Positions 31,738 through 61,077 of a stretch of DNA of 64,000 bases are shown piece by piece (within the stretch, counting starts at the first letter, position 1; each line of letters starts with the position of its first letter). The DNA comes from a virus (lineage: Duplodnaviria; Caudoviricetes), in IMG/VR virus record IMGVR_UViG_3300037067_003400, positions 1-64,000 of that record; one strand, written 5' to 3'. A program made the translations under genes and the position numbers. Under the pieces are notes generated by a model that was not told where the DNA came from, made no database searches, and saw only the letters and a list, made by a program, of their open reading frames with translations.

Positions 31738-32365
31738 ATATCCTCCACTCTATCCTACATATATATTATACCCGCATTCCACTAATTTAAACACTGTTTT
31801 TTGTTACATATGTAACATTTAATTATTTATCTATTTATTATTAAATGTAACATTTAATTAAACTTTGCCTTTTTTACATATAGTCTGTAAGCCAAGGAGG
31901 AAATAATATTCCCAGAAAACAAAAATACTAAGCCCCACCCCCTTTTACATAGTATATAGTAAACAGAGGAAGACTCCTCTTACGTAAGGTCTACCCCCCT
32001 TAATAGAAAGACTATTAAGGTCTGTCCCCTTGGTATAGTCGTAGATACCAAAGGTACCTACTATAGTTACCAAGGTCTGCCTCCTATAAGAGATGCTTTA
32101 TATATAAGGTATCCCTCTATAAGATAACTATTTTTCTTAATACACTTCCGAAGATATTTTTAATATCTTCTATTCCTAACTCTATAGAAAGATCTCAAAA
32201 TTTAATCATTCTTCCAGCACTAGGTATATATTCAAGAAGGTGGGGGTATACTCTTTGTTTAGCCCAACCCGTTGATGATACATCAACGTCTATCCTCTTG
32301 TGTGTATAGCTTTAGTAGACACTCAAAGTAGATTACAGTTACTAAGGCAAAGAAAGGAAAGAACA
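31738..32365. promoter_or_regulatory. Divergent intergenic control region between the two arms
   Basis: Strand switch; contains the palindromic operator (31803), AAGGT repeats, several hairpins and a minus-strand TATAAT near 31765-31770. Confidence 0.7.
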
Positions 32366-37916: not shown

Positions 37917-38589
37917 GAGGAAGCTATGACTAAACAAGAAATAGGTATCCAAGTAAGAAGATTGTGGCAGTTTTATTCTTTGCCACAGGACACAACTGAC
38001 CCAGAACTAAATGAGTTACTGGACTTGATGACTTCTAAGGTTTCTGGTGAAGCCTATGATTCTAATAGGTATTTCTTTCTATTAGATATTTATACTAATA
38101 GTTATCAGTTTTAGTTACACATGTAACAGAAAGTGTTACACATGTAACAAGAATATAGTGTGTTTGGTAGTCTCTATTTGTGGGTGTATTTGTGGGTCAC
38201 TTTTGATCTCAATTGTTTGCTTATTTGTTTGGAAAAGGTGGCCCGCACTTGAGTGTAATAGACTCAAGTAACCTATCAAAAAAAGTGCCTTACTTGCTAT
38301 ATTTTAAATCTCGTTGTTACACATGTAACGGATACTATGTATTCGTGGTGTATTAAAAAGGAGAGTATAATGAATCTGGATATGTTTATCCTATCCCATC
38401 TTAAGAAGGCACAGCAAGCTTTATGTCTTCGAGAGTATTGGGACGTGGTATCAGAAATCTCTGTACTGGGCAAAATAGACCCAGCTTATGGAGTATTACT
38501 ATCTAATACAGAAGAACAGTTAGTTCTTATGTTAAGATGGCAGATTGCTTGTGTAGTAAATAGAATACATATTGAGAAGGGACACTAAA

Positions 38590-39575
38590 ATGGAAGACGT
38601 AAGCTGTAGGGGCTTGCTGGTATAGAGAGAAGAGCAGCTCTTAGTGGTGTGTGGGAAGACGTTTAGATTGTGAAGAGTGTGAACGTTTGTTCACATGTGA
38701 TGCCTTTAACTCCAGGGGTAAACACTAGCACTTTGGTGTCTACCCCTAAGACTATCTTAAGAGTGTGACTATGAAAAGTATGAGGTATGACTATTGATTG
38801 TATCTGTCGTTAAGTTACTGGTAGGTAGTAGACAGGTGATGCTCTCTTTCTTGGAGAGCAGGGTACTGCCGTCCCTACATAGTAGGGGTTAACAGTTTTT
38901 CTGTTATACGTAACTAACCTTGTACGAGTTAGAACATATATTGTGTAACTCTTACTGTTTATTTACTGTTAAAAGTTAATTACTTTTATATTAAATGTGT
39001 TTACTTTATGTTTACAGATACAAAAACTCCAGTAGTTTTGTTCTGATAAATGTTAACTATTTCTTATGTATTTGTGATTACTAACACATATGCCTTCAAA
39101 TAGGTATACATAGGTGCCTTCGGCACCCGTGTTATTGTAGGTATGATGAGTGGTTTATGATACTTGCCCCTACTTTGAGCCTGAGGTGAGCTTATTTCAA
39201 ACGTGAAATGAGTGTCCACGTGTTTTGGTAGGGTTTTTGTAAGAAAAGACAGGTCTTTTAATGGGTAAACACTTGTTTACTTATCTCATTTTCTAAGAGA
39301 AGCTGTTTCTTAGACAATTATAGCTTTAATTTAGAGGCTATTTCTAATTAGACTGTTAAAATTAGAAGCATTTACTACTACTTTGAGCTCAATATAGGTA
39401 ATTCCTTATATAAAGAGCTCATTTATCACTGTAAGGCTTCCTTTAATTATGTTTTATTAATTAAAGGCTTAATCTACTGTTCTATCAGGAATAGTAGGTT
39501 GTCTTATCTTTGTAACTATGTTCAAATCTGGGAAATAATTGCCTCCCGGACTTAACAGGTCTACTTTTAAATTAA
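38590..39575. other. About 1 kb non-coding region packed with short inverted repeats
   Basis: No ORF of 60 aa or more; at least 12 stems visible by eye. Confidence 0.7.
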
Positions 39576-39587
39576 AGGAGTTTTAAA

Positions 39588-54100: not shown

Positions 54101-57100
54101 TGAAGTTGACTGGAGATCAGTATAAGTTTTCTGTATGGGATTGTGCAACAGGTTCTACTATTAGTACATTATCCGGTGTGTGTTCTATAAAAGATCCTAA
54201 CTTTGATAGAATTAAAAGGTTTGCTGATAAGCACAACCGTAAAAGTAATTCTCCTTTTAATAGATTTGGTATCATGAGTGGTCTTAAAGATTACCGTGGT
54301 AGAAGACACATAGTTTTTTTGAGACACTATATAAATTATGGCAAGCATTTTTGTACGTCTGCGGAGTTTGATAAGATGTCTAATGCATTTGCTTATGGAG
54401 CTTATTGTAGGATTTGTGCGGACTATCCTGATTATAGTGATGAGGAGATAGTAAATCACTGTAATGCTGCTTTTACTTTATTTAGTAGAAGGTATCCTAA
54501 TTTTAGACATTATAATGATGCTTATGTTAATGGTAAGCCTTATACATTTAAATATAAAGTAGGGGTTGCTCTTAGCTTTGTATATGAACAGTTTGAGAGG
54601 GGTTGGTTATTTTGATACGACTACCTGAAGATGACTTTGAAGCTAAAGAGTATGAGATGTCTCTTCTAGATATACTAAAGATGTTTAAGACTTCTCCTGA
54701 TAGTATAGCTATTCTTTCTTATAAGAAAGAGAAAGATGAAGAAGCTATAGTTATTAGAACTAATATATGTGTTGTATTAGATACTACACTTATAAAATCT
54801 ACTGTTTCTGGGAATCCTTTGTACCGTGTAGAGTATAACTGTTCTGATGATACTGTTATGTTTTATCCAAGTTTAGAAGGTACTAAGAAGATACTTGAGA
54901 ATCTTTTTTATGCTATTGGTTTAGTAGATTCTGTAGCTTGCGATGCTTTTAAGAGGTCTTTTTATGGATAATAATACATATGTAGCAATTGTAGTAGATC
55001 GTAATGAGTGGGCTATAATTCTTTTTGAGATGTGTAAGACTCATGCCAGTGCCAGAGACTCTATTTATGAATGGGTTGTTGATCATTGGGATGATGTTGA
55101 AGATGAGTTAGGCTCCATTGATGATCATGGTGATACTGATAATGTTATCACTGCATACTTCGAAATAGAAAATTGTAATCTTTGGTGGGAAATAAAGACT
55201 ATTCCTGGAAAGTTTATATCTCCGATAAGTTATGAGTAGGTATAAGTTATGTATATTTCTTGTTACTATAGACCTGTTAATGATTACTGTGGTGACTTAG
55301 CTATATTTAATACTAAAGCTGCTGCAGATGAACATGCTATTGCTGTGGCTATGCGTAATAATGTTACATGTGATGGTGAGGATATTGCTTTAGTTTTAAA
55401 AGAGCGATATAACTTAACCTATGTGTGTAAATACTTTAGTGGCACTATCATTGAGGAGACTTCTAATCCTGATAGTATTTATCCTTATCTTATTTCTAAT
55501 GCTGAAACATCAGAGATAGTAGAACTTAACTATATTGTTCATCGTGATGTAATCTTTGCTTCTGAATTATTAGATAAAAAAATCTGGGAGTTTGTAAGAA
55601 ATAGGTGGGCGGAATATTTCCCAGGAAGAGATTGCCGCTATAATGATACCGATATAGATGATTTCTTTGATAAGAGTCCTTTTGATTATGACTATGTTAA
55701 GAAGCTTTATCGTTTTATACCAGCTCCAACGTATGAGTAGACTATTCTACATATGAGTAGGTGATTAAATGTATCTTTGTTTTGTTTGGGTTAAGCAGTC
55801 TCACACTCTTTATGATACATACTATGCTAATGATAAAGAGACTATAGATGGCTGGTGTAAAGGGTATGCTGGTTCTGATAAGTATGTCGTTGTTCTTCAC
55901 GAATTTCCTGGTAAGTGTATACAAAGAAGTATGGAAAATAGTTACTTTAATTTCTTTTGTGTTATGCGTAGAAGTGACTACAAAGTAATCCACGTAAGTC
56001 GTGGTAAAGCATCAGGTAATCTTTCTTATAAGTATGTTTCAGATAACTGGGATAGTTTTATGAATATCCCAATGGAATCTGTGAAAAATGCAGCAGATGC
56101 ATATTTTTGGGATGTAGCAACCCACCAGTTATGTAGAACTAATATTACTGCATATGGTAAGTATCAATACTTAGAATACGAGTGAGTTGTAAACAATTAA
56201 CATGTGAATAGGATATGAACATTATGATAAAAGAAATTATAATATGTGCTATACTTGGATTTTTTATTGGGTATGGTTTAGTATCTTTTGTAAAGGATAT
56301 CTGTAAAAGATCCTTGTGAGGTAGCTATGAAATTTGAAAACCGTAAGGGCGAGATTGTTGATGTAAAAGATTTGGAAACTTCTTTTCTAAAGCATCAATT
56401 GTCTTATTTTAGAAACAGATGTAGAGAAGATGAGAACTACATTGAAGCTTTTGAGAATGAGTTGAACTGTAGAAATGGGTTGCCTAATAATACTGAAAGG
56501 TGTTATCCCACAACGTGGAAGTCTAAGACTGGGGATATTCTTATCTACCAGATGAGTACAGACCATATACAAAAATGCATATCATATTTAAAGACTAATG
56601 TATCAAAAGATAAAGAGGCTATTGCTTTAATGGCTGCTGAATTTGAAACAAGAACTGATGACCATGAGTATGAGCACCCCAGTAACGGTAGCGGTGGTTA
56701 TCCATATATAGATGAGGATAACGCTGACTGTATAGACCCAATGGTTAATTGGGGTGACTAAAAGGAGGTAGTATATGCTTTCTGAAACAATAAATGCAGA
56801 CTCTTTATATCTTATAAATGGTACCTATATAAAAGTTAGTAATGTAGGGTATGAAGCAGAAACAGATACTTATTCTGTTATGCATACTTTTTGTGGTAAG
56901 ACACAGAAACTTATTATCCCAGCGAGGTCTGTGCTATACTTTGTATTAGAACAAGATAAAGCTGAGGTGAGTTAATATGCGTTGGTGGCTTCATAAAAGA
57001 AAAAAGATGTATCGTTATAAGGCTATGCTTTTGAGACCATGTAAACCAGACCCAGAAGGTTATTGTAAGACTGAAAGTTTGGCAGTGGTAATTGAGACTG

Positions 57101-57174
57101 ATATGGAAAATTTTAAGTCTTTTAAAGATGATGTCTATGGCAAGTGGATAGTAGGTGCTGTAGCAAAGATATAA
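48160..57174 (+). CDS. Dense array of about 25 small hypothetical and membrane ORFs
   Basis: Co-oriented, abutting ORFs; several are hydrophobic (48160, 49038, 49263); no recognisable enzyme motifs. Confidence 0.6.
56327..56761 (+). CDS. Protein with a tandemly duplicated small phage domain
   Basis: G.IVDVKDLETSFLKHQLSYF...AFENELNCR resembles GDILIYQMSTDHIQKCISYL...LMAAEFETR. Confidence 0.65.
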   Translation: MKFENRKGEIVDVKDLETSFLKHQLSYFRNRCREDENYIEAFENELNCRNGLPNNTERCYPTTWKSKTGDILIYQMSTDHIQKCISYLKTNVSKDKEAIALMAAEFETRTDDHEYEHPSNGSGGYPYIDEDNADCIDPMVNWGD

Positions 57175-57609
57175 AAAGTAAGTAAAGACGCACAAACAGA
57201 GGGAAGTGAAAAGATATTTAGTAGTTGTTCCTTAATTCTCATGGCATGCAACTGTCAGGACTGGAGGAGTGTATGTAGTATGTATGGTTGTACCTCAACT
57301 TATTTTTTTTGGTTCGCTTTTTAATTGAATCTTTTTTGTAGGGAGGTTAGCATGTTAGACAGTATCCTCTCTTGGCTTGGTGATTTTGATTGGTATGACT
57401 TCGATAGACCGTACTATTGTAACGGAGACATTAAGGTTTATGTCCGTAGTTTGGAAGCTACATACCTTAAATCTAAAATAGTTATCAAGTTGAGTAAAGT
57501 TGTGCTTGTAACAATAGCTGCTGTTAAACAATCTATATTAACAGCAAGCAATGCATTGAAATGCAACTCGCCTCCGGTGATGAAAACTATATAGAATAAT
57601 TATTAATTA

Positions 57610-58056
57610 GGGTTTGGCAAGAAAGGTTTACATGCCTTTGCTGTGCCAAGTGGGGTTCTTACTACCCAGGGATTAGGATTAACCCGAAGATACTTAGTAT
57701 CTTCTATATGACTGTTCTTGAAATAAGAGTGTGTCTATGCACAGATATCTCCTCATAGGCTTAGGAAGCTTGGCTTCTGTGACGGTAGCAAGATTGTAAT
57801 TGCTAACTACAATTATATACTAAACCTCTGTTAGTAGCTACCGAGACTTGGAGACCTTGTAATACAGAAACAATGCCTTAAATAGTGGCTCCCTTAGCAA
57901 CGGAGTATGCTACGTGTGTCAGTCTTGCTCGAGAATGTAGACTGTGGTTAGGGTAGAGTCGCTGTGGTGCGTACACAGACCGTAGAGATACATAACAAAC
58001 ATCTCTACCGAGATAAAGAGCTGGTTGGATTCCAGTGCTCTATCGTCAACCATATA
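57610..58056 (+). ncRNA. Large structured ncRNA candidate (unassigned)
   Basis: ORF-free, relatively GC-rich, with at least 11 helices including a three-way junction and a 3' T-loop-like hairpin. Confidence 0.65.
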
Positions 58057-58872
58057 CTTTGCAATTATTGTTAACAAATTTTGTTAAGGATGGTGTATGT
58101 TATGAGAGAACATAAAGGTTTTTGGTGGCATGTGTTAAGAGCACAAGCTATGCTATTTGGTTATGGTGCATTGATAGTAGGTGGATTTATTGCCTTAGTG
58201 CTATTTGTTACTTGGGCTTCTACGTTACATGGTATAGCTGCTCTTATATTCTGGGTATCAGTACTTCTACTAATAGGTTTAGTAGCTGGTATTATAAGCT
58301 ACATAATGCAAGATTTGTAGGGTTATAATGATGGGTAGATTAAGTGACCCAGATGTTTTAATATTGATTGCTGTAGTAGTAATAGCTATTGTTATCTTTG
58401 GCTTCTTTGCTATGTATGAGCGAGTGAATACTGAGTATATAGTAGTTATAAGGCATACTCCTAATGGGAATGTTTCTACTACATATTCTGGGTATAAACA
58501 TTCTGATATTTCTTGGGAATATAATGTCCTGTCTTTAGATTACGGCAGGGATACTTGTTATCATGAGATAAAGGGTTGTGATGTTAAGGTATACAATGAA
58601 GGTTGTGGATATCTAAAGAGAAAGTAAGGAGCATGATATGGAAAGAATAATCTGTAAAGAATGTGGTACTTGCCATGAAGAAGAGAATGGTAGCAAAGAA
58701 GTTACTGAACAGTCTGGTTTTCTTTGTGGTAGTTGCTACGAAAAACTAAGAACTATTAAGCAAGCTCAAGATACAGTTGCTTATAAAACGAGAAGCTAAT
58801 ATTTTTAGGTTATAGTGTGATGGCTTATGCCTATATCACTAATGGGTGTTACTGTTTAAAGTTTTTTTATTT

Positions 58873-58999
58873 GGGTGGCTGGACTGGTATTCTAGTGTTA
58901 GACTAGTGGGAAACTTAGGTGAGCTAATCATACTCGGATTTTTGCCCAAGGAGCTGTCCCTAAGTACTGTAGGCTCGCAATATACAGGGAACCCCACCC
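58873..58999 (+). ncRNA. About 127-nt multi-stem structured RNA candidate
   Basis: GGGTGG/CCACCC closing stem followed by a T run; internal CTAGT/ACTAG, ACTTAGG/CCTAAGT and CTGTA/TACAG stems. Confidence 0.5.
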
Positions 59000-59027
59000 T
59001 TTTACACCCATCTATAGGAGGTTAATT

Positions 59028-59489
59028 ATGAAATCGTTTATTGGTATTGCATTAGTTTTTATTGTAGTATTTGCTGTAATTAGTGGCATCTTCTCTGTAG
59101 TAGGGTGGCTTACTAAAGCATCCAAGGTAGTAGAGAAAGAGGTTGACCCAGCGAATCTACAGAGGAAATATGAGTGGTTTAAAGACCAGTCTGCTGCCCT
59201 TACCCAATTAAATGCAGACATCAAGGTATACTATACTAATGTGTCTGAGATGAAGTCTGACTACAAGGGTATTCATAGAAGTAAGTGGACTAGAGATGAT
59301 AGGAACCAGTATGCACAGTGGAGAGCTGAGTGTGCTGGTGTAGTAGCTAAGTATAATGAGCTGGCTGCTGAATACAATAGCCAGATGGCTAAGTGGAATT
59401 GGAAGTTTTGTAATGTGGGTAGTCTTCCCAAGGGAGCCAGTGAGGTTTTACCTAAAGCTTATGCTCCTTATAAGACAGATTTGGAGTAA
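59028..59489 (+). CDS. Membrane-anchored helical protein
   Basis: N-terminal TM helix; YEWFK...YN..AAEYN. Confidence 0.7.
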   Translation: MKSFIGIALVFIVVFAVISGIFSVVGWLTKASKVVEKEVDPANLQRKYEWFKDQSAALTQLNADIKVYYTNVSEMKSDYKGIHRSKWTRDDRNQYAQWRAECAGVVAKYNELAAEYNSQMAKWNWKFCNVGSLPKGASEVLPKAYAPYKTDLE

Positions 59490-59492
59490 CCT

Positions 59493-60041
59493 GTGAAAAT
59501 TCTATTAAGTTTTTGTGTAGTATTAATGATACTACTTAGTGGTTGTGAGTCTCAACCTGTAGAGACTGCTATAGATTCTCCTAAGAGAGTTCAGGTAAAA
59601 GTAAAGACAGATTCCGATGGGTTAACTGTAGAGCAGAAGAATATATCCAGGAGACTTACAGAAGATAATAAACCTGGGGCTGTTAAACATTTATACCTTA
59701 TTTCACCGTATTCTGGACAAGCTATAATGTATTCTACTGTCAATGGTAAAGTTACTTCCTCTGAGAAGAGGCTTACTCCTAAGACTGTTGGATGCACTGG
59801 TGGAGAATATGTATATAGGGAGAATAGGGGTATTGCGGTTGCACTACCTAATGAAGGCACTAAAAATACCCCAGAGGTATTAGGTGATGATGGTACTTAT
59901 GGAGATAGCTACCAGTATATTTACTGGTGGGATACTAAAGGAAGATATCATCAAGTTATTCCTGGGAATTGTATAGTCCTGATTACAGATAAGCCGCTGG
60001 TAACTAATAAGGTTACTATTGATTTGAGGAATGTGCAATAA
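59493..60041 (+). CDS. Lipoprotein
   Basis: Signal peptide with LSGC lipobox; HLYLIS, GKVTS, DDGTYG motifs. Confidence 0.7.
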   Translation: MKILLSFCVVLMILLSGCESQPVETAIDSPKRVQVKVKTDSDGLTVEQKNISRRLTEDNKPGAVKHLYLISPYSGQAIMYSTVNGKVTSSEKRLTPKTVGCTGGEYVYRENRGIAVALPNEGTKNTPEVLGDDGTYGDSYQYIYWWDTKGRYHQVIPGNCIVLITDKPLVTNKVTIDLRNVQ

Positions 60042-60096: not shown

Positions 60097-61077
60097 ATGG
60101 AAATCATAGAAAGAATACCAGTTCCTACAGGGGACATTTTAATAGTCGAAGGTGAACATGGTAAGTTAGAATGTTTATCACTGGGTGACTATGGCAAAGA
60201 TGTTAATGTACACTCTGATGCTCTTGGTTTATCAAGAGATATAGAAAAAGTAGAGCATACTAAACTGCTTCCTTTAGAACACAAGTGGGTAGTAACTATA
60301 TCTACTCAGTATGGGTGTTCTATGAAGTGTAAGATATGTGATGTTCCTAAAGTAGGTCCCGGAGTAAATGCTACCTGTGATGATCTTGTGAACCAAGTAA
60401 GAGTGGCTATGAGTATTCACCCAGAGGTAGTATACTCCAAGAGACTTAATGTACATTATGCCAGAATGGGTGAGGCTACTTGGAATCCAGAAGTTCTTGA
60501 TGCGACAGTTGTTTTACATAGTCATCTTCCTAAGGAGTTTCTTTTTCATCCTGTGGTATCTACTATGATGCCTAAGACTAATAAAAATTTGTATGAGTTT
60601 TTATCTCAGTGGATCTTTTTAAAGAACCAAGTTCTAAATGGTGAGGCTGGGCTACAGTTATCTATAAACTCTACTGATGAGGAAGAGCGTGTACACTTGT
60701 TTGGTGGCAGTGCTCTCTCATTAGATAAAGTTGGGAAGCTGATGTCTCGATTTGATTCTAGACCCCTGATAGGTAGGAAGTATACACTCAACTTTGCAGT
60801 TGCTGGATGGGAAATATCCCCAGAGATTTTATTAAGATACTTTAATCCTGAGAGGTACATTATTAAGTTGACTCCTATGCATAAGACTATAACTGCATTG
60901 GAGAATGATATTAAAACATCAGGAGACTATACTACTTTCCATCCTTATAAAGAAGTTGAGGAAGAACTAACAGCTGCTGGGTATGATGTACTTGTGTTCA
61001 TTGCTTCCAAAGAGGAAGACATGGGAAGAATTACCTGTGGAAATGCTATACTTTCTGGAACGAGACCAGAATTGTAG
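60097..61077 (+). CDS. RlmN/Cfr-like radical SAM enzyme
   Basis: STQYGCSMKCKIC (CxxxCxxC); RMGE ~ MGMGEP; LQLSINS ~ LAISLHA; ITCGN ~ AACGQ. Confidence 0.85.
   Translation: MEIIERIPVPTGDILIVEGEHGKLECLSLGDYGKDVNVHSDALGLSRDIEKVEHTKLLPLEHKWVVTISTQYGCSMKCKICDVPKVGPGVNATCDDLVNQVRVAMSIHPEVVYSKRLNVHYARMGEATWNPEVLDATVVLHSHLPKEFLFHPVVSTMMPKTNKNLYEFLSQWIFLKNQVLNGEAGLQLSINSTDEEERVHLFGGSALSLDKVGKLMSRFDSRPLIGRKYTLNFAVAGWEISPEILLRYFNPERYIIKLTPMHKTITALENDIKTSGDYTTFHPYKEVEEELTAAGYDVLVFIASKEEDMGRITCGNAILSGTRPEL

What the first reader, a model, noticed from the sequence alone, without database searches (positions are those of the whole stretch)
57610..58056. Roughly 450-nt ornate non-coding RNA candidate
Seen helices in order: TTGGCA/TGCCAA enclosing AAAGG/CCTTT; TGGG/CCCA; GAAGATAC/GTATCTTC; GAAGC/GCTTC; a three-way junction CGGTAGC(57783)/GCTACCG(57837) enclosing ATTGTA/TACAAT and TACTAA/TTAGTA; TTGT-AATACAGAA-ACAA; CTCC/GGAG; CAGTCT/AGACTG; CTGTG/CACAG; GTAGAGAT/ATCTCTAC; and a terminal GATA..GAGC-TGG-TTGGATT-CCA..GCTC-TATC with a T-loop-like apex, followed by CAACCA. 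TGTATGGTTG near 57281 could pair with CAACCATATA near 58047, extending the RNA to about 780 nt across the doubtful ORF at 57325. Known: phages carry large ncRNAs of unknown function (GOLLD, ROOL). Inference: a diverged member of one of these or a new class; I cannot match it to tmRNA, RNase P or an intron.
Basis: partly seen in the sequence, partly recalled or inferred. Interest (0 to 1): 0.78.

Follow-up and report, generated by a model that had tools for sequence, protein, structure and literature searches.

The report
New tRNA-shaped structured phage RNA
The ORF-free stretch at 57607-58053 of this 211-kb uncultivated jumbo phage encodes a previously undescribed, heavily base-paired RNA of about 320-450 nt, ending in a tRNA-shaped four-way junction, whose folds are kept by many compensatory mutations in a distant relative phage; its function is unknown.

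Summary
The candidate is real. 57596-58080 has no ORF under three genetic codes, is GC-enriched, and matches no Rfam family. Folding energy alone is not distinctive (z -1.5 to -1.8).

The decisive evidence is comparative. Covariance models built from the window hit one distant jumbo phage (G025, terminase 49% identical) at 92.5 and 62.4 bits. Across 73 homologous base pairs, 17 changed on both sides and stayed paired, 5 changed on one side compatibly, and none broke. Near relatives add two more compensatory pairs and several wobble changes that work only on the + strand.

The conserved core (about 57729-58053) contains:
- a pseudoknotted hairpin;
- a three-way junction;
- two hairpins, one predicted to kiss a junction loop;
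- a tRNA-shaped four-way junction closed by a 14-bp stem.

The 5' 120 nt vary between lineages.

"CAACCA" is the 3' strand of the closing stem, not a CCA end.

It is not tRNA, tmRNA, Y RNA, GOLLD or ROOL, so I treat it as a new, rare RNA class. In both phages it lies within 3.7 kb of an RlmN/Cfr-like radical-SAM gene and a small conserved ORF. A role as their tRNA-mimic partner is my leading hypothesis, and it is unproven.

The parts
57607..57727 (+). Lineage-specific 5' extension. Its hairpins are 57614-19/57644-49 enclosing 57622-26/57635-39; 57651-54/57665-68; a weak 57669-71/57683-85; and 57686-93/57697-704.
   Evidence: Homology with the X3 contig begins at 57607. The first hairpin covaries in L077 and X3. 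In the ENA variant L079 the whole block is replaced by about 27 nt, and in G025 by one unrelated hairpin. X3 carries a 25-nt hairpin insertion in the first loop.
57729..57760 (+). P0 hairpin (57729-32/57739-42, loop GUCUAU at 57733-38) and a predicted pseudoknot of that loop with AUAGGC at 57755-60.
   Evidence: U57730-A57741 becomes G-C in G025. The loop is invariant. Its 6-nt complement is kept in both clades, with G57759 versus A giving G.U or A-U.
57749..57853 (+). P1 (CUCC 57749-52 with GGAG 57850-53), enclosing the three-way junction domain.
   Evidence: The four pairs are identical in the window, L079 and G025. They are invariant, so they are consistent with the helix but do not prove it.
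57764..57778 (+). Lineage-specific hairpin GGAAGC/GCUUCU.
   Evidence: In L079, G57765-C57777 becomes A-U. In L079, X3, X4 and X7, G.U57778 becomes G-C. The hairpin is absent in G025.
57783..57843 (+). Three-way junction: H3 57783-89/57837-43, H4 57793-98/57808-13 (loop AUUGCUAAC), H5 57818-23/57831-36 (loop ACCUCUG).
   Evidence: Model R1 scores 62.4 bits in G025. All cells are paired, 8 pairs are compensatory against G025, and 0 of 500 shuffles reach the observed score. RNAalifold predicts the same helices independently. C57841 to U and G57785 to A occur in near relatives.
57883..57912 (+). P6 bulged hairpin: 57883-87/57908-12, bulged A57907, 57888-92/57902-06. Its loop (57893-901) is predicted to kiss the H4 loop, UUAGCAA (57894-900) with UUGCUAA (57800-06).
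   Evidence: There are two compensatory pairs and one compatible pair against G025. X3's G57887 to A turns G.U into A-U. The kissing complementarity is 7 bp in the window and 5 bp in G025; 6 of 20000 loop shuffles reach 7 bp.
57920..57944 (+). P7 hairpin CAGUCU/AGACUG.
   Evidence: U57925-A57939 becomes C-G in G025. X3's changes at 57936/57937 fall in the loop.
57945..58053 (+). tRNA-shaped four-way junction. Closing stem: P8a 57945-50 with 58046 and 58048-52, plus P8b 57952-59/58037-44. D-like arm 57962-66/57974-78. Long arm 57982-89/58001-08. An 11-nt single strand CGAGAUAAAGA. T-like arm 58020-24/58032-36 with a 7-nt loop.
   Evidence: Model R2 scores 92.5 bits in G025. Of the cells, 98.4% are paired and 5 pairs are compensatory, against 27-45% paired when partners are slid. 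RNAalifold recovers the fold and adds P8a. The only Rfam similarity is tRNA-Sec at 16.3 bits, E 4.9.
57352..57594 (+). ORF80, a small conserved protein gene that co-occurs with the RNA. It is context and not part of the RNA.
   Evidence: It has a good Shine-Dalgarno sequence. Across 5.8 billion proteins its only homologues are in the RNA-bearing lineages: L077 at 76% and G025 at 46-66%. In G025 it directly follows the radical-SAM gene.
60097..61077 (+). RlmN/Cfr-like radical-SAM gene. It is context and a candidate partner.
   Evidence: The best PDB and NCBIfam similarities are Cfr and RlmN, all far below the family cut-offs. G025 has a 29-31% identical homologue two genes downstream of its RNA copy.

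Best explanation
This is the gene for a discrete, + strand, highly structured non-coding RNA of a new family. So far the family is confined to a small group of uncultivated jumbo phages of about 210-217 kb.

Shown:
- The conserved core (about 57729-58053, 320 nt) folds into a pseudoknotted 5' hairpin, a P1-enclosed three-way junction, two hairpins, and a 3' four-way junction.
- The four-way junction's arm order, connector lengths (2 nt after the closing stem, 0 nt between the T-like arm and the closing stem) and its 5-bp/7-nt T-like arm copy a tRNA cloverleaf.
- It differs from a tRNA in having a 14-bp closing stem instead of a free acceptor end, and an 8-bp arm with an 11-12-nt loop in place of the anticodon arm.
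- The 5' 120 nt are a variable hairpin extension.

Inferred:
- The RNA acts in trans as a folded particle. Its immediate neighbour genes differ between the two phages while the RNA itself is about 75% identical, against 49% amino-acid identity for the terminase.
- It uses its tRNA-shaped module to engage a tRNA/rRNA-binding protein.
- The best candidate partners are the phage's own RlmN/Cfr-like radical-SAM enzyme and the small ORF80 protein. In both phages these lie within 3.7 kb of the RNA despite rearrangement.

My odds:
- Real selected RNA structure: about 0.95.
- Trans-acting RNA rather than a cis leader: about 0.6.
- tRNA mimicry is functionally relevant: about 0.5.
- Functional link to the radical-SAM/ORF80 pair: about 0.3.
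For: - No ORF under three codes, and raised GC.
- Models built from the window alone find a single strong homologue among about 90 related viral records, in an ORF-free gap of G025: R2 92.5 bits and R1 62.4 bits.
- Window versus G025, hand-anchored helices: 67 pairs, of which 46 are the same, 5 are compatible on one side, 16 are compensatory and 0 are broken. Adding P8a gives 6 more pairs with 1 compensatory.
- Tool counts: 100% of cells paired, 9 double changes and 0 of 500 shuffles for the junction region. For the four-way junction, 98.4% paired and 5 double changes. Slid controls give 25-52% paired and at most 1 double change.
- RNAalifold recovers the same helices.
- Near relatives (X3, X4, X7, L077, L079) add 2 compensatory pairs and 5-6 one-sided changes. 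All of these are wobble-compatible on the + strand only. Most other substitutions fall in loops.
- Long single-stranded blocks are identical between clades: AAG, UAUA, CCGAGAC, UUAGGGUAG, ACCG, CCGAGAUAAAGAG.
- Context: in G025 the order is RNA, a 208-aa ORF, the radical-SAM gene, then ORF80-like. In the window it is ORF80, RNA, six small genes, then the radical-SAM gene.
- ORF80 homologues exist only where the RNA exists.
- Related sequence is present in a metatranscriptome and in RNA-seq-labelled libraries. This is weak evidence, because DNA carry-over is possible.
Against: - Only two clades are known, so covariation rests essentially on one deep comparison plus shallow variants. No R-scape-type significance can be computed.
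- The model-guided alignments lean towards the model structure, although the stems are bracketed by invariant blocks.
- Folding energy is not better than shuffled sequence.
- No transcript ends, promoter or terminator were identified.
- Twenty-four other phages carry closer radical-SAM homologues (51-64% identical) without the RNA or ORF80. The enzyme therefore does not need this RNA.
- G025 and the window phage are related, so shared neighbourhood may be residual synteny.
- In G025 the closing stem touches the Shine-Dalgarno sequence of the next gene, which fits a cis role.
- One short 5' helix (57669-71/57683-85) changes G-C to A.A in X3 and X7.
Confidence: 0.55

Rival explanations
1. Cis-regulatory leader. 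The RNA would be the 5' untranslated region of the downstream operon, which in both phages eventually includes the RlmN/Cfr-like gene. It would regulate the operon by substrate mimicry: the encoded RNA-binding enzyme would bind the tRNA-shaped domain and repress translation, as ThrRS does on the thrS leader or ribosomal proteins do on their own mRNAs.
For: It is on the same strand as all the neighbouring genes. No terminator-like site lies between the RNA and the next gene. In G025 the 3' strand of P8a overlaps the first two bases of the AAGGAGG ribosome-binding site of the next gene, and that gene heads a tight three-gene cluster containing the radical-SAM gene.
Against: The genes immediately downstream are unrelated in the two phages: a 76-aa membrane protein versus a 208-aa protein with no match in the window genome. 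In the window the radical-SAM gene is 2 kb and six genes away. The H5 loop's complementarity to the ribosome-binding site is not conserved (5 bp in G025, 3 bp in the window, by inspection). No alternative terminator/antiterminator fold was seen. A 320-nt core with a pseudoknot and a kissing loop is far larger than known operators.
Confidence: 0.2
2. RNA-only assembly. Like ROOL and GOLLD, the RNA would multimerise through intermolecular kissing loops into a scaffold or cage that acts on tRNAs or ribosomes during infection.
For: It is phage-encoded, large and ornate. It has a conserved 3' part and a variable 5' part, as described for GOLLD, and ROOL and GOLLD use kissing loops as intermolecular bridges (paper 10.1101/2024.12.08.627333). 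The H4 and P6 loops are 7-nt (window) or 5-nt (G025) complementary and could pair within or between molecules.
Against: There is no sequence or structure match to the ROOL or GOLLD models, even at E up to 10. The RNA is smaller (320-450 nt). Nothing here distinguishes intra- from intermolecular pairing. It does not sit in the phage's tRNA islands, which lie at 85-96 and 148-156 kb.
Confidence: 0.15
3. Relic of tandem tRNA genes, or a diverged tRNA, tmRNA or Y RNA. The three-way junction and the four-way junction would be decayed or specialised members of known tRNA-like families.
For: The four-way junction has tRNA arm order, and the tRNA-Sec model aligns end to end at 16.3 bits. The three-way junction has the layout of a D-armless tRNA. 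The phage encodes 9 tRNAs, a Ro60/TROVE protein and tRNA mimics elsewhere.
Against: ARAGORN finds no tRNA or tmRNA here. The Rfam tRNA, tmRNA and other models are far below threshold. The loop in the anticodon position has 11-12 nt. The closing stem is 14 bp with no free end, and the CCA is part of a covarying helix. No reading frame is conserved between the clades. G025 has the RNA but no TROVE gene. Intense compensatory change shows current selection, not decay.
Confidence: 0.05
4. DNA-level element, such as a replication origin, a packaging site or a cluster of protein-binding inverted repeats, rather than an RNA.
For: It is an intergenic stretch with many inverted repeats. The minus strand folds with a slightly better z-score of -3.15.
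Against: At least 10 stem changes pass through or end in G.U pairs that would be A.C mismatches on the other strand. The bulged-A hairpin, pseudoknot and loop-loop complementarities are RNA-type features. No iterons or tandem repeats were seen by inspection.
Confidence: 0.03

Closest known systems
GOLLD and ROOL (large ornate phage/prophage RNAs of unknown function; Rfam RF01998, RF03087)
   Same: Phage-encoded, several hundred nucleotides, many helices, tertiary loop-loop contacts, unknown function, and an association with tRNA biology. As in GOLLD, the 3' region is conserved and the 5' region varies, and GOLLD sometimes carries a tRNA in its linker.
   Different: There is no match to either covariance model, even at E up to 10, in the window or in G025. 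The RNA is shorter (320-450 nt, versus more than 800 nt in many GOLLD members), its helix layout differs, and it is not located next to the phage's tRNA islands.
tRNA-like structures embedded in larger RNAs (tmRNA tRNA-like domain, bacterial Y RNA YrlA, MALAT1 mascRNA, plant-virus 3' TLS)
   Same: A cloverleaf-type four-way junction with tRNA arm order, a 2-nt connector after the closing stem, and a 5-bp T-like stem with a 7-nt loop that keeps U at position 1 and A at position 5 and stacks directly on the closing stem.
   Different: The closing stem is 14 bp and has no free NCCA end. The arm in the anticodon position is 7-8 bp with an 11-12-nt loop. There is no G3.U70, no tag reading frame and no Ro-binding stem. 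The T-loop reads UUGGAUU or UAGAAAU rather than UUCRANY. The scores are far below every Rfam threshold, and ARAGORN is negative.
phi29 pRNA (phage packaging RNA built on a three-way junction with interlocking loops)
   Same: A phage RNA with a central three-way junction and complementary loops.
   Different: No Rfam match. It is located mid-genome among early/lysis-like genes rather than at a genome end. It is a much larger multi-domain RNA, and the host phage is a terminase-packaging jumbo phage.

Membership tests
tRNA | Recognised by tRNA detectors or the Rfam tRNA model at threshold | tested here: not met
   ARAGORN finds 0 genes in the window. The best clan hit is tRNA-Sec at 16.3 bits, against a gathering score of 47.
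tRNA | 5-bp anticodon stem with a 7-nt loop, and a 7-bp acceptor stem with a free 3' end | tested here: not met
   The arm in the anticodon position is 7-8 bp with an 11-12-nt loop. The closing stem is 8+6 bp, and its 3' strand includes the supposed CCA.
tmRNA | The 5' and 3' termini pair to form the acceptor stem with G3.U70, and there is no anticodon arm | tested here: not met
   The closing stem is formed locally (57945-59 with 58037-52). The third pair of the acceptor-like stem P8b (57954-58042) is U-A, and a long third arm is present.
tmRNA | A conserved tag reading frame with a resume codon and a stop | tested here: not met
   The only GCU-initiated frame (57802 onwards) has a different length and end in G025, and it lies in covarying stems (inspection). 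ARAGORN's tmRNA search is negative, and the Rfam tmRNA model does not appear at E up to 10.
GOLLD / ROOL / OLE | Match to the family covariance model | tested here: not met
   cmscan finds nothing at gathering score over the whole window, and nothing at E up to 10 on 57000-58300 or on the G025 copy.
Bacterial Y RNA (YrlA type) | Encoded next to, and dependent on, a Ro60/TROVE gene, with a Ro-binding terminal stem | tested here: not met
   The phage's TROVE gene is 27 kb away, at 85475-86356 or beyond, and has its own tRNA-like cluster. G025 carries the RNA but no TROVE gene. Ro binding itself cannot be tested here.
Group I/II intron, RNase P RNA, riboswitches, known ribozymes | Match to the family covariance model; for introns, an interrupted host gene | tested here: not met
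   There are no Rfam hits. The flanking ORFs are complete, and they are unrelated in the two phages.
New family proposed here | Homologues share 14 helices (P0, P1, H3-H5, P6a/b, P7, P8a/b, D-, AC- and T-like arms) with conserved junction sequences | tested here: met
   Met in the window lineage and in G025: 73 pairs, 17 compensatory, 0 broken. Only two clades are available.

The most novel reading that the evidence does not exclude
A new class of ornate phage RNA built from two tRNA-derived modules: a D-armless-like three-way junction and a full cloverleaf with a sealed acceptor stem. It would work as the dedicated RNA partner of a phage RlmN/Cfr-like radical-SAM enzyme. Both phages' enzymes lack a cysteine at the spacing of RlmN's crosslink-resolving Cys118 while keeping the C-terminal methyl-carrier cysteine. 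The enzyme could therefore become covalently trapped on the RNA (or the RNA could titrate it), giving a programmed RNA-protein conjugate or an RNA antidote that controls an RNA-crosslinking enzyme during infection.
Probability: 0.12. Interest if true: 0.92.

Novelty: categorically new. Interest (0 to 1): 0.72.

Why it matters
Large, intricately folded non-coding RNAs of unknown function are rare. OLE, GOLLD, ROOL and raiA are the main examples, and each one found has opened new RNA structural biology. This adds a phage-specific RNA with no relative in Rfam, and its secondary structure can already be drawn from covariation.

It combines a pseudoknot, a three-way junction, a predicted kissing loop and a tRNA-shaped four-way junction whose acceptor end is sealed. 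It sits in a jumbo phage that also carries tRNAs, a Ro60 orthologue with tRNA mimics, and an RlmN/Cfr-like enzyme. This points to heavy investment in manipulating host tRNA and ribosome biology.

The RNA is short enough for in-vitro transcription, chemical probing and cryo-EM. Its candidate protein partners are named, so the hypothesis can be tested directly.

The caveat is rarity. Only two clades are known, no host is known, and no function has been shown.

Tried and rejected
**Homologue searches that found nothing**
- blastn of the region, and of the G025 copy, against 50,697 phage records gave no match.
- blastn and nhmmer against 24 loci around radical-SAM homologues found nothing, and there is no synteny there.
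- Exact or degenerate DNA patterns in IMG/VR found nothing.
- The 17-mer CCGAGATAAAGAGCTGG found G025 plus three chance hits inside coding regions.
- The two-block pattern found G025 only among 28 metagenome hits, and nothing real among 20 genome hits.
- A protein search for ORF80 in metagenome contigs found nothing.
- The downstream 76-aa protein has no relatives beyond identical copies.
- Translating the minus-strand 52-aa ORF to fish for mis-called genes gave only a repetitive false hit.
- A profile of the 180-aa neighbour found only G025.

**Weak model hits rejected**
- Hits of 12-18 bits in G041, G064 and G038 were rejected. They lie in coding sequence or have many non-pairs.

**Structure ideas rejected**
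- The 7-bp pairing of 57736-42 with the D-like loop 57967-73, which appears in the minimum-energy fold, fails because A57741 to C in G025 breaks it while fitting hairpin P0.
- The 17-bp minimum-energy helix 57882-98/57947-65 is hit by three disruptive X3 changes and is replaced by P6 and P8.
- My own closing-helix idea, UGACG (57780-84) with CGUCA (58044-48), was superseded by P8a, which covaries.
- A tmRNA-like tag reading (ANYNYILNLC) was rejected, as was sequestration of the ribosome-binding site by the H5 loop. Neither is conserved.

**Evidence not used**
- Minimum-energy z-scores are not informative.
- The promoter/terminator scan found nothing above shuffles.
- RNA-library contigs cover only the RNA and not its flanks. 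I did not count this, because the runs were selected with this stretch, diverged flanks may not lay on it, and DNA carry-over is possible.

**Other leads dropped**
- A Ro60 link: G025 lacks TROVE.
- A CCA-adding enzyme gene: there is none in the phage.
- The protein atlas and Pfam/PHROGs searches on ORF80 returned nothing.
Full report
**Setting**

The window is the first 64 kb of a 210,951-bp IMG/VR virus record from groundwater. The record is about 98% complete, has GC 0.358, and carries nine tRNA genes elsewhere. The nearest cultured phages are jumbo phages such as Moorella phage MTATph1 and Bacillus phage 0305phi8-36, with only 29-35% terminase identity. All genes around the target are on the + strand.

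**Observation**

The stretch 57596-58080 has no ORF of 30 aa or more on the + strand under code 11, code 4 or TAG=Q. Its GC is 0.40-0.43, against 0.33-0.37 in the flanks.

Rfam gives no hit at gathering score anywhere in the window. With E up to 10, the region returns only a 16.3-bit tRNA-Sec alignment at 57952-58044. ARAGORN finds nothing. Minimum-energy folding is not better than shuffled sequence: z is -1.84 for the + strand, -1.45 for the core and -3.15 for the minus strand. Thermodynamics therefore does not settle the question.

**Near relatives**

Public runs hold the stretch in landfill, wastewater, biofilm and aquatic samples as well as in groundwater. Laying contigs on the window and fetching two ENA contigs through the flanking proteins gave these variants:
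- X3, a 487-nt contig, is about 96% identical over 57607-58021 and carries a 25-nt hairpin insertion in the first loop. The ORF80 C-terminus just 5' of 57607 does not align with the window's.
- L077 covers ORF80 (76% amino-acid identity) and the first 50 nt of the RNA.
- L079 is identical to the window on both sides, but 57602-57727 is replaced by about 27 nt and it has eight differences in 57744-57789.

The stem changes in these variants are:
- A57624-U57637 becomes G-C.
- G57765-C57777 becomes A-U.
- One-sided changes at 57623, 57649, 57778, 57789, 57841 and 57887 all keep a pair through G.U on the + strand. On the minus strand they would be A.C mismatches.

Most other substitutions fall in hairpin loops (57696, 57893, 57901, 57936/7, 57970). 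One small helix (57669-71/57683-85) goes from G-C to A.A.

**Distant relative**

R1 covers 57745-57860 and R2 covers 57944-58056. Searching 42 viral records related through the terminase or the radical-SAM gene gave one strong hit, in G025 (IMGVR_UViG_3300029288_004596, 216,899 bp, terminase 49% identical). R2 scored 92.5 bits and R1 62.4 bits. Both hits lie in one ORF-free gap of about 340 nt.

Every later search returned only G025 again or chance hits in coding DNA: patterns in IMG/VR, metagenome and genome collections, an improved model R3 over 50 records, and ORF80 and neighbour-protein profiles. The family is therefore rare, with two clades known.

**Covariation**

On the model-guided alignments, the junction region has 100% of cells paired and 9 pairs changed on both sides, and 0 of 500 shuffles reach this. 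Slid controls give 25-52% paired and at most one double change. The four-way junction including its extended stem has 98.4% paired and 5 double changes, against 27-45% paired when slid. RNAalifold predicts the same helices on its own and adds P8a.

A hand-anchored comparison of 13 helices gives 67 pairs: 46 identical, 5 compatible on one side, 16 compensatory and none broken. P8a adds 6 pairs with one compensatory. The stems are bracketed by invariant single-stranded blocks, so alignment freedom is small. Even so, this is one deep comparison, not a statistical sample.

**Architecture (window coordinates)**

- Variable 5' extension, 57607-57727, with four hairpins. It is absent from L079 and G025.
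- P0, 57729-32/57739-42. Its invariant loop GUCUAU can pair with 57755-60, and this is conserved in both clades; G57759 versus A gives G.U or A-U.
- P1, 57749-52/57850-53. It encloses a lineage-specific hairpin (57764-78) and the three-way junction H3, H4 and H5 (57783-57843).
- A variable linker.
- P6, 57883-57912, with bulged A57907. Its loop is complementary to the H4 loop over 7 nt in the window and 5 nt in G025; 6 of 20000 loop shuffles reach 7 bp.
- P7, 57920-44.
- The four-way junction, 57945-58053. It has a 6+8-bp closing stem, a D-like arm, an 8-bp arm with an 11-nt loop (shared motif AUAACAA), an invariant 11-nt strand CGAGAUAAAGA, and a T-like arm of 5 bp with a 7-nt loop.

- GCTCTATC pairs with GGTAGAGT (57952-59), not with GATA...GAGC.
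- CAACCA pairs with TGGTTA (57945-50). In G025 it reads CAATCA, compensated by TGATTA, so it is not a CCA end.
- TGTATGGTTG at 57281 is not conserved in L077, so the 780-nt extension fails.

**What it is not**

- tRNA: the detectors are negative and the arm sizes are wrong.
- tmRNA: no terminal acceptor stem, no G3.U70 and no conserved tag frame.
- Y RNA: the phage's Ro60/TROVE gene is 27 kb away with its own tRNA-like cluster, and G025 has no TROVE gene.
- GOLLD, ROOL, OLE, RNase P, introns: no model match in either copy.

**Context and mechanism**

The genes directly flanking the RNA differ between the phages. Two genes stay nearby, however.
- One is an RlmN/Cfr-like radical-SAM gene, at window 60097-61077. 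G025's homologue is 29-31% identical and lies two genes downstream of its RNA copy. Its best PDB and NCBIfam similarities are to Cfr and RlmN, far below the family cut-offs.
- The other is ORF80, whose only homologues among 5.8 billion proteins are in the RNA-bearing lineages. In G025 the ORF80-like gene overlaps the stop of the radical-SAM gene.

Both radical-SAM proteins have Thr or Asn seven residues before the CxxxCxxC motif, where E. coli RlmN has Cys118. The E. coli numbering is from memory; the spacing was checked. Both keep a C-terminal Cys.

I therefore favour a trans-acting, tRNA-shaped RNA particle that engages a tRNA/rRNA-binding factor, with this enzyme and ORF80 as the leading candidates. 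The link is weak for three reasons:
- 24 phages have closer radical-SAM homologues without the RNA or ORF80.
- The two RNA-bearing phages are related, so the shared neighbourhood may be residual synteny.
- In G025 the closing stem abuts the next gene's ribosome-binding site, which keeps a cis-leader model alive.

An RNA-only assembly in the manner of ROOL and GOLLD is also open.

**Verdict**

This is a real, new and rare structured phage RNA whose secondary structure is now largely defined. Its function is not shown. This scan had noted the same stretch once before, on an overlapping window (e1-5658561). No look-alike was noted on other DNA.

Noticed in passing
Same genome, outside the window: G000 85475-86356 and beyond (L139/L140); tRNA-like cluster at about 84410-85128: The phage encodes a 534-aa Ro60/TROVE orthologue (79 and 59 bits). 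Directly upstream are four Rfam tRNA-model hits. One is a 60-nt element with acceptor, D and T arms but no anticodon arm (L139 917-976), which makes it a YrlA-type Y RNA candidate. ARAGORN also calls a 'tRNA-???' with a 4-base anticodon at 84957-85033.
   Followed up: partly
window 60097-61077; L084 3519-4466 (G025): Both phages' RlmN/Cfr-like radical-SAM proteins have Thr67 or Asn62 seven residues before the CxxxCxxC motif, at the spacing of RlmN's crosslink-resolving Cys118. Both keep a C-terminal Cys (ITCGN / LCCGQL). This was checked by spacing only, not by a structural alignment.
   Followed up: partly
window 57175-57300: The non-coding stretch upstream of ORF80 has blocks conserved with the ENA contig L077 (for example ACAAACAGAGGGAA and GGACTGGAGGAGTGTATGTAGTA). 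It is followed by a weak hairpin plus a T-run at about 57288-57315. It may be a promoter/leader or a second small RNA.
   Followed up: no
window 57602-57790 versus L079; window 57631-57638 versus X3: Mosaic variation within otherwise identical phages. L079 swaps the 5' 125 nt of the RNA for about 27 nt, with eight further differences in 57744-57789. X3 has a 25-nt hairpin inserted in the first loop; the insert resembles the window's own hairpin at 57686-57704 and is flanked by a TTACA repeat.
   Followed up: partly
window 58090-60041: A run of small genes lies between the RNA and the radical-SAM gene. It includes two predicted membrane proteins (58090-58320, 58328-58627) and a weak Rz-like spanin hit (59493-60041, phrog_456, E 3e-4). 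This may be a lysis cassette.
   Followed up: no
window 31738-32299, 38589-39063, 39220-39587: Other ORF-free gaps of 370-560 nt in the window. The first lies at the switch from minus- to plus-strand genes. None matches Rfam at gathering score.
   Followed up: no
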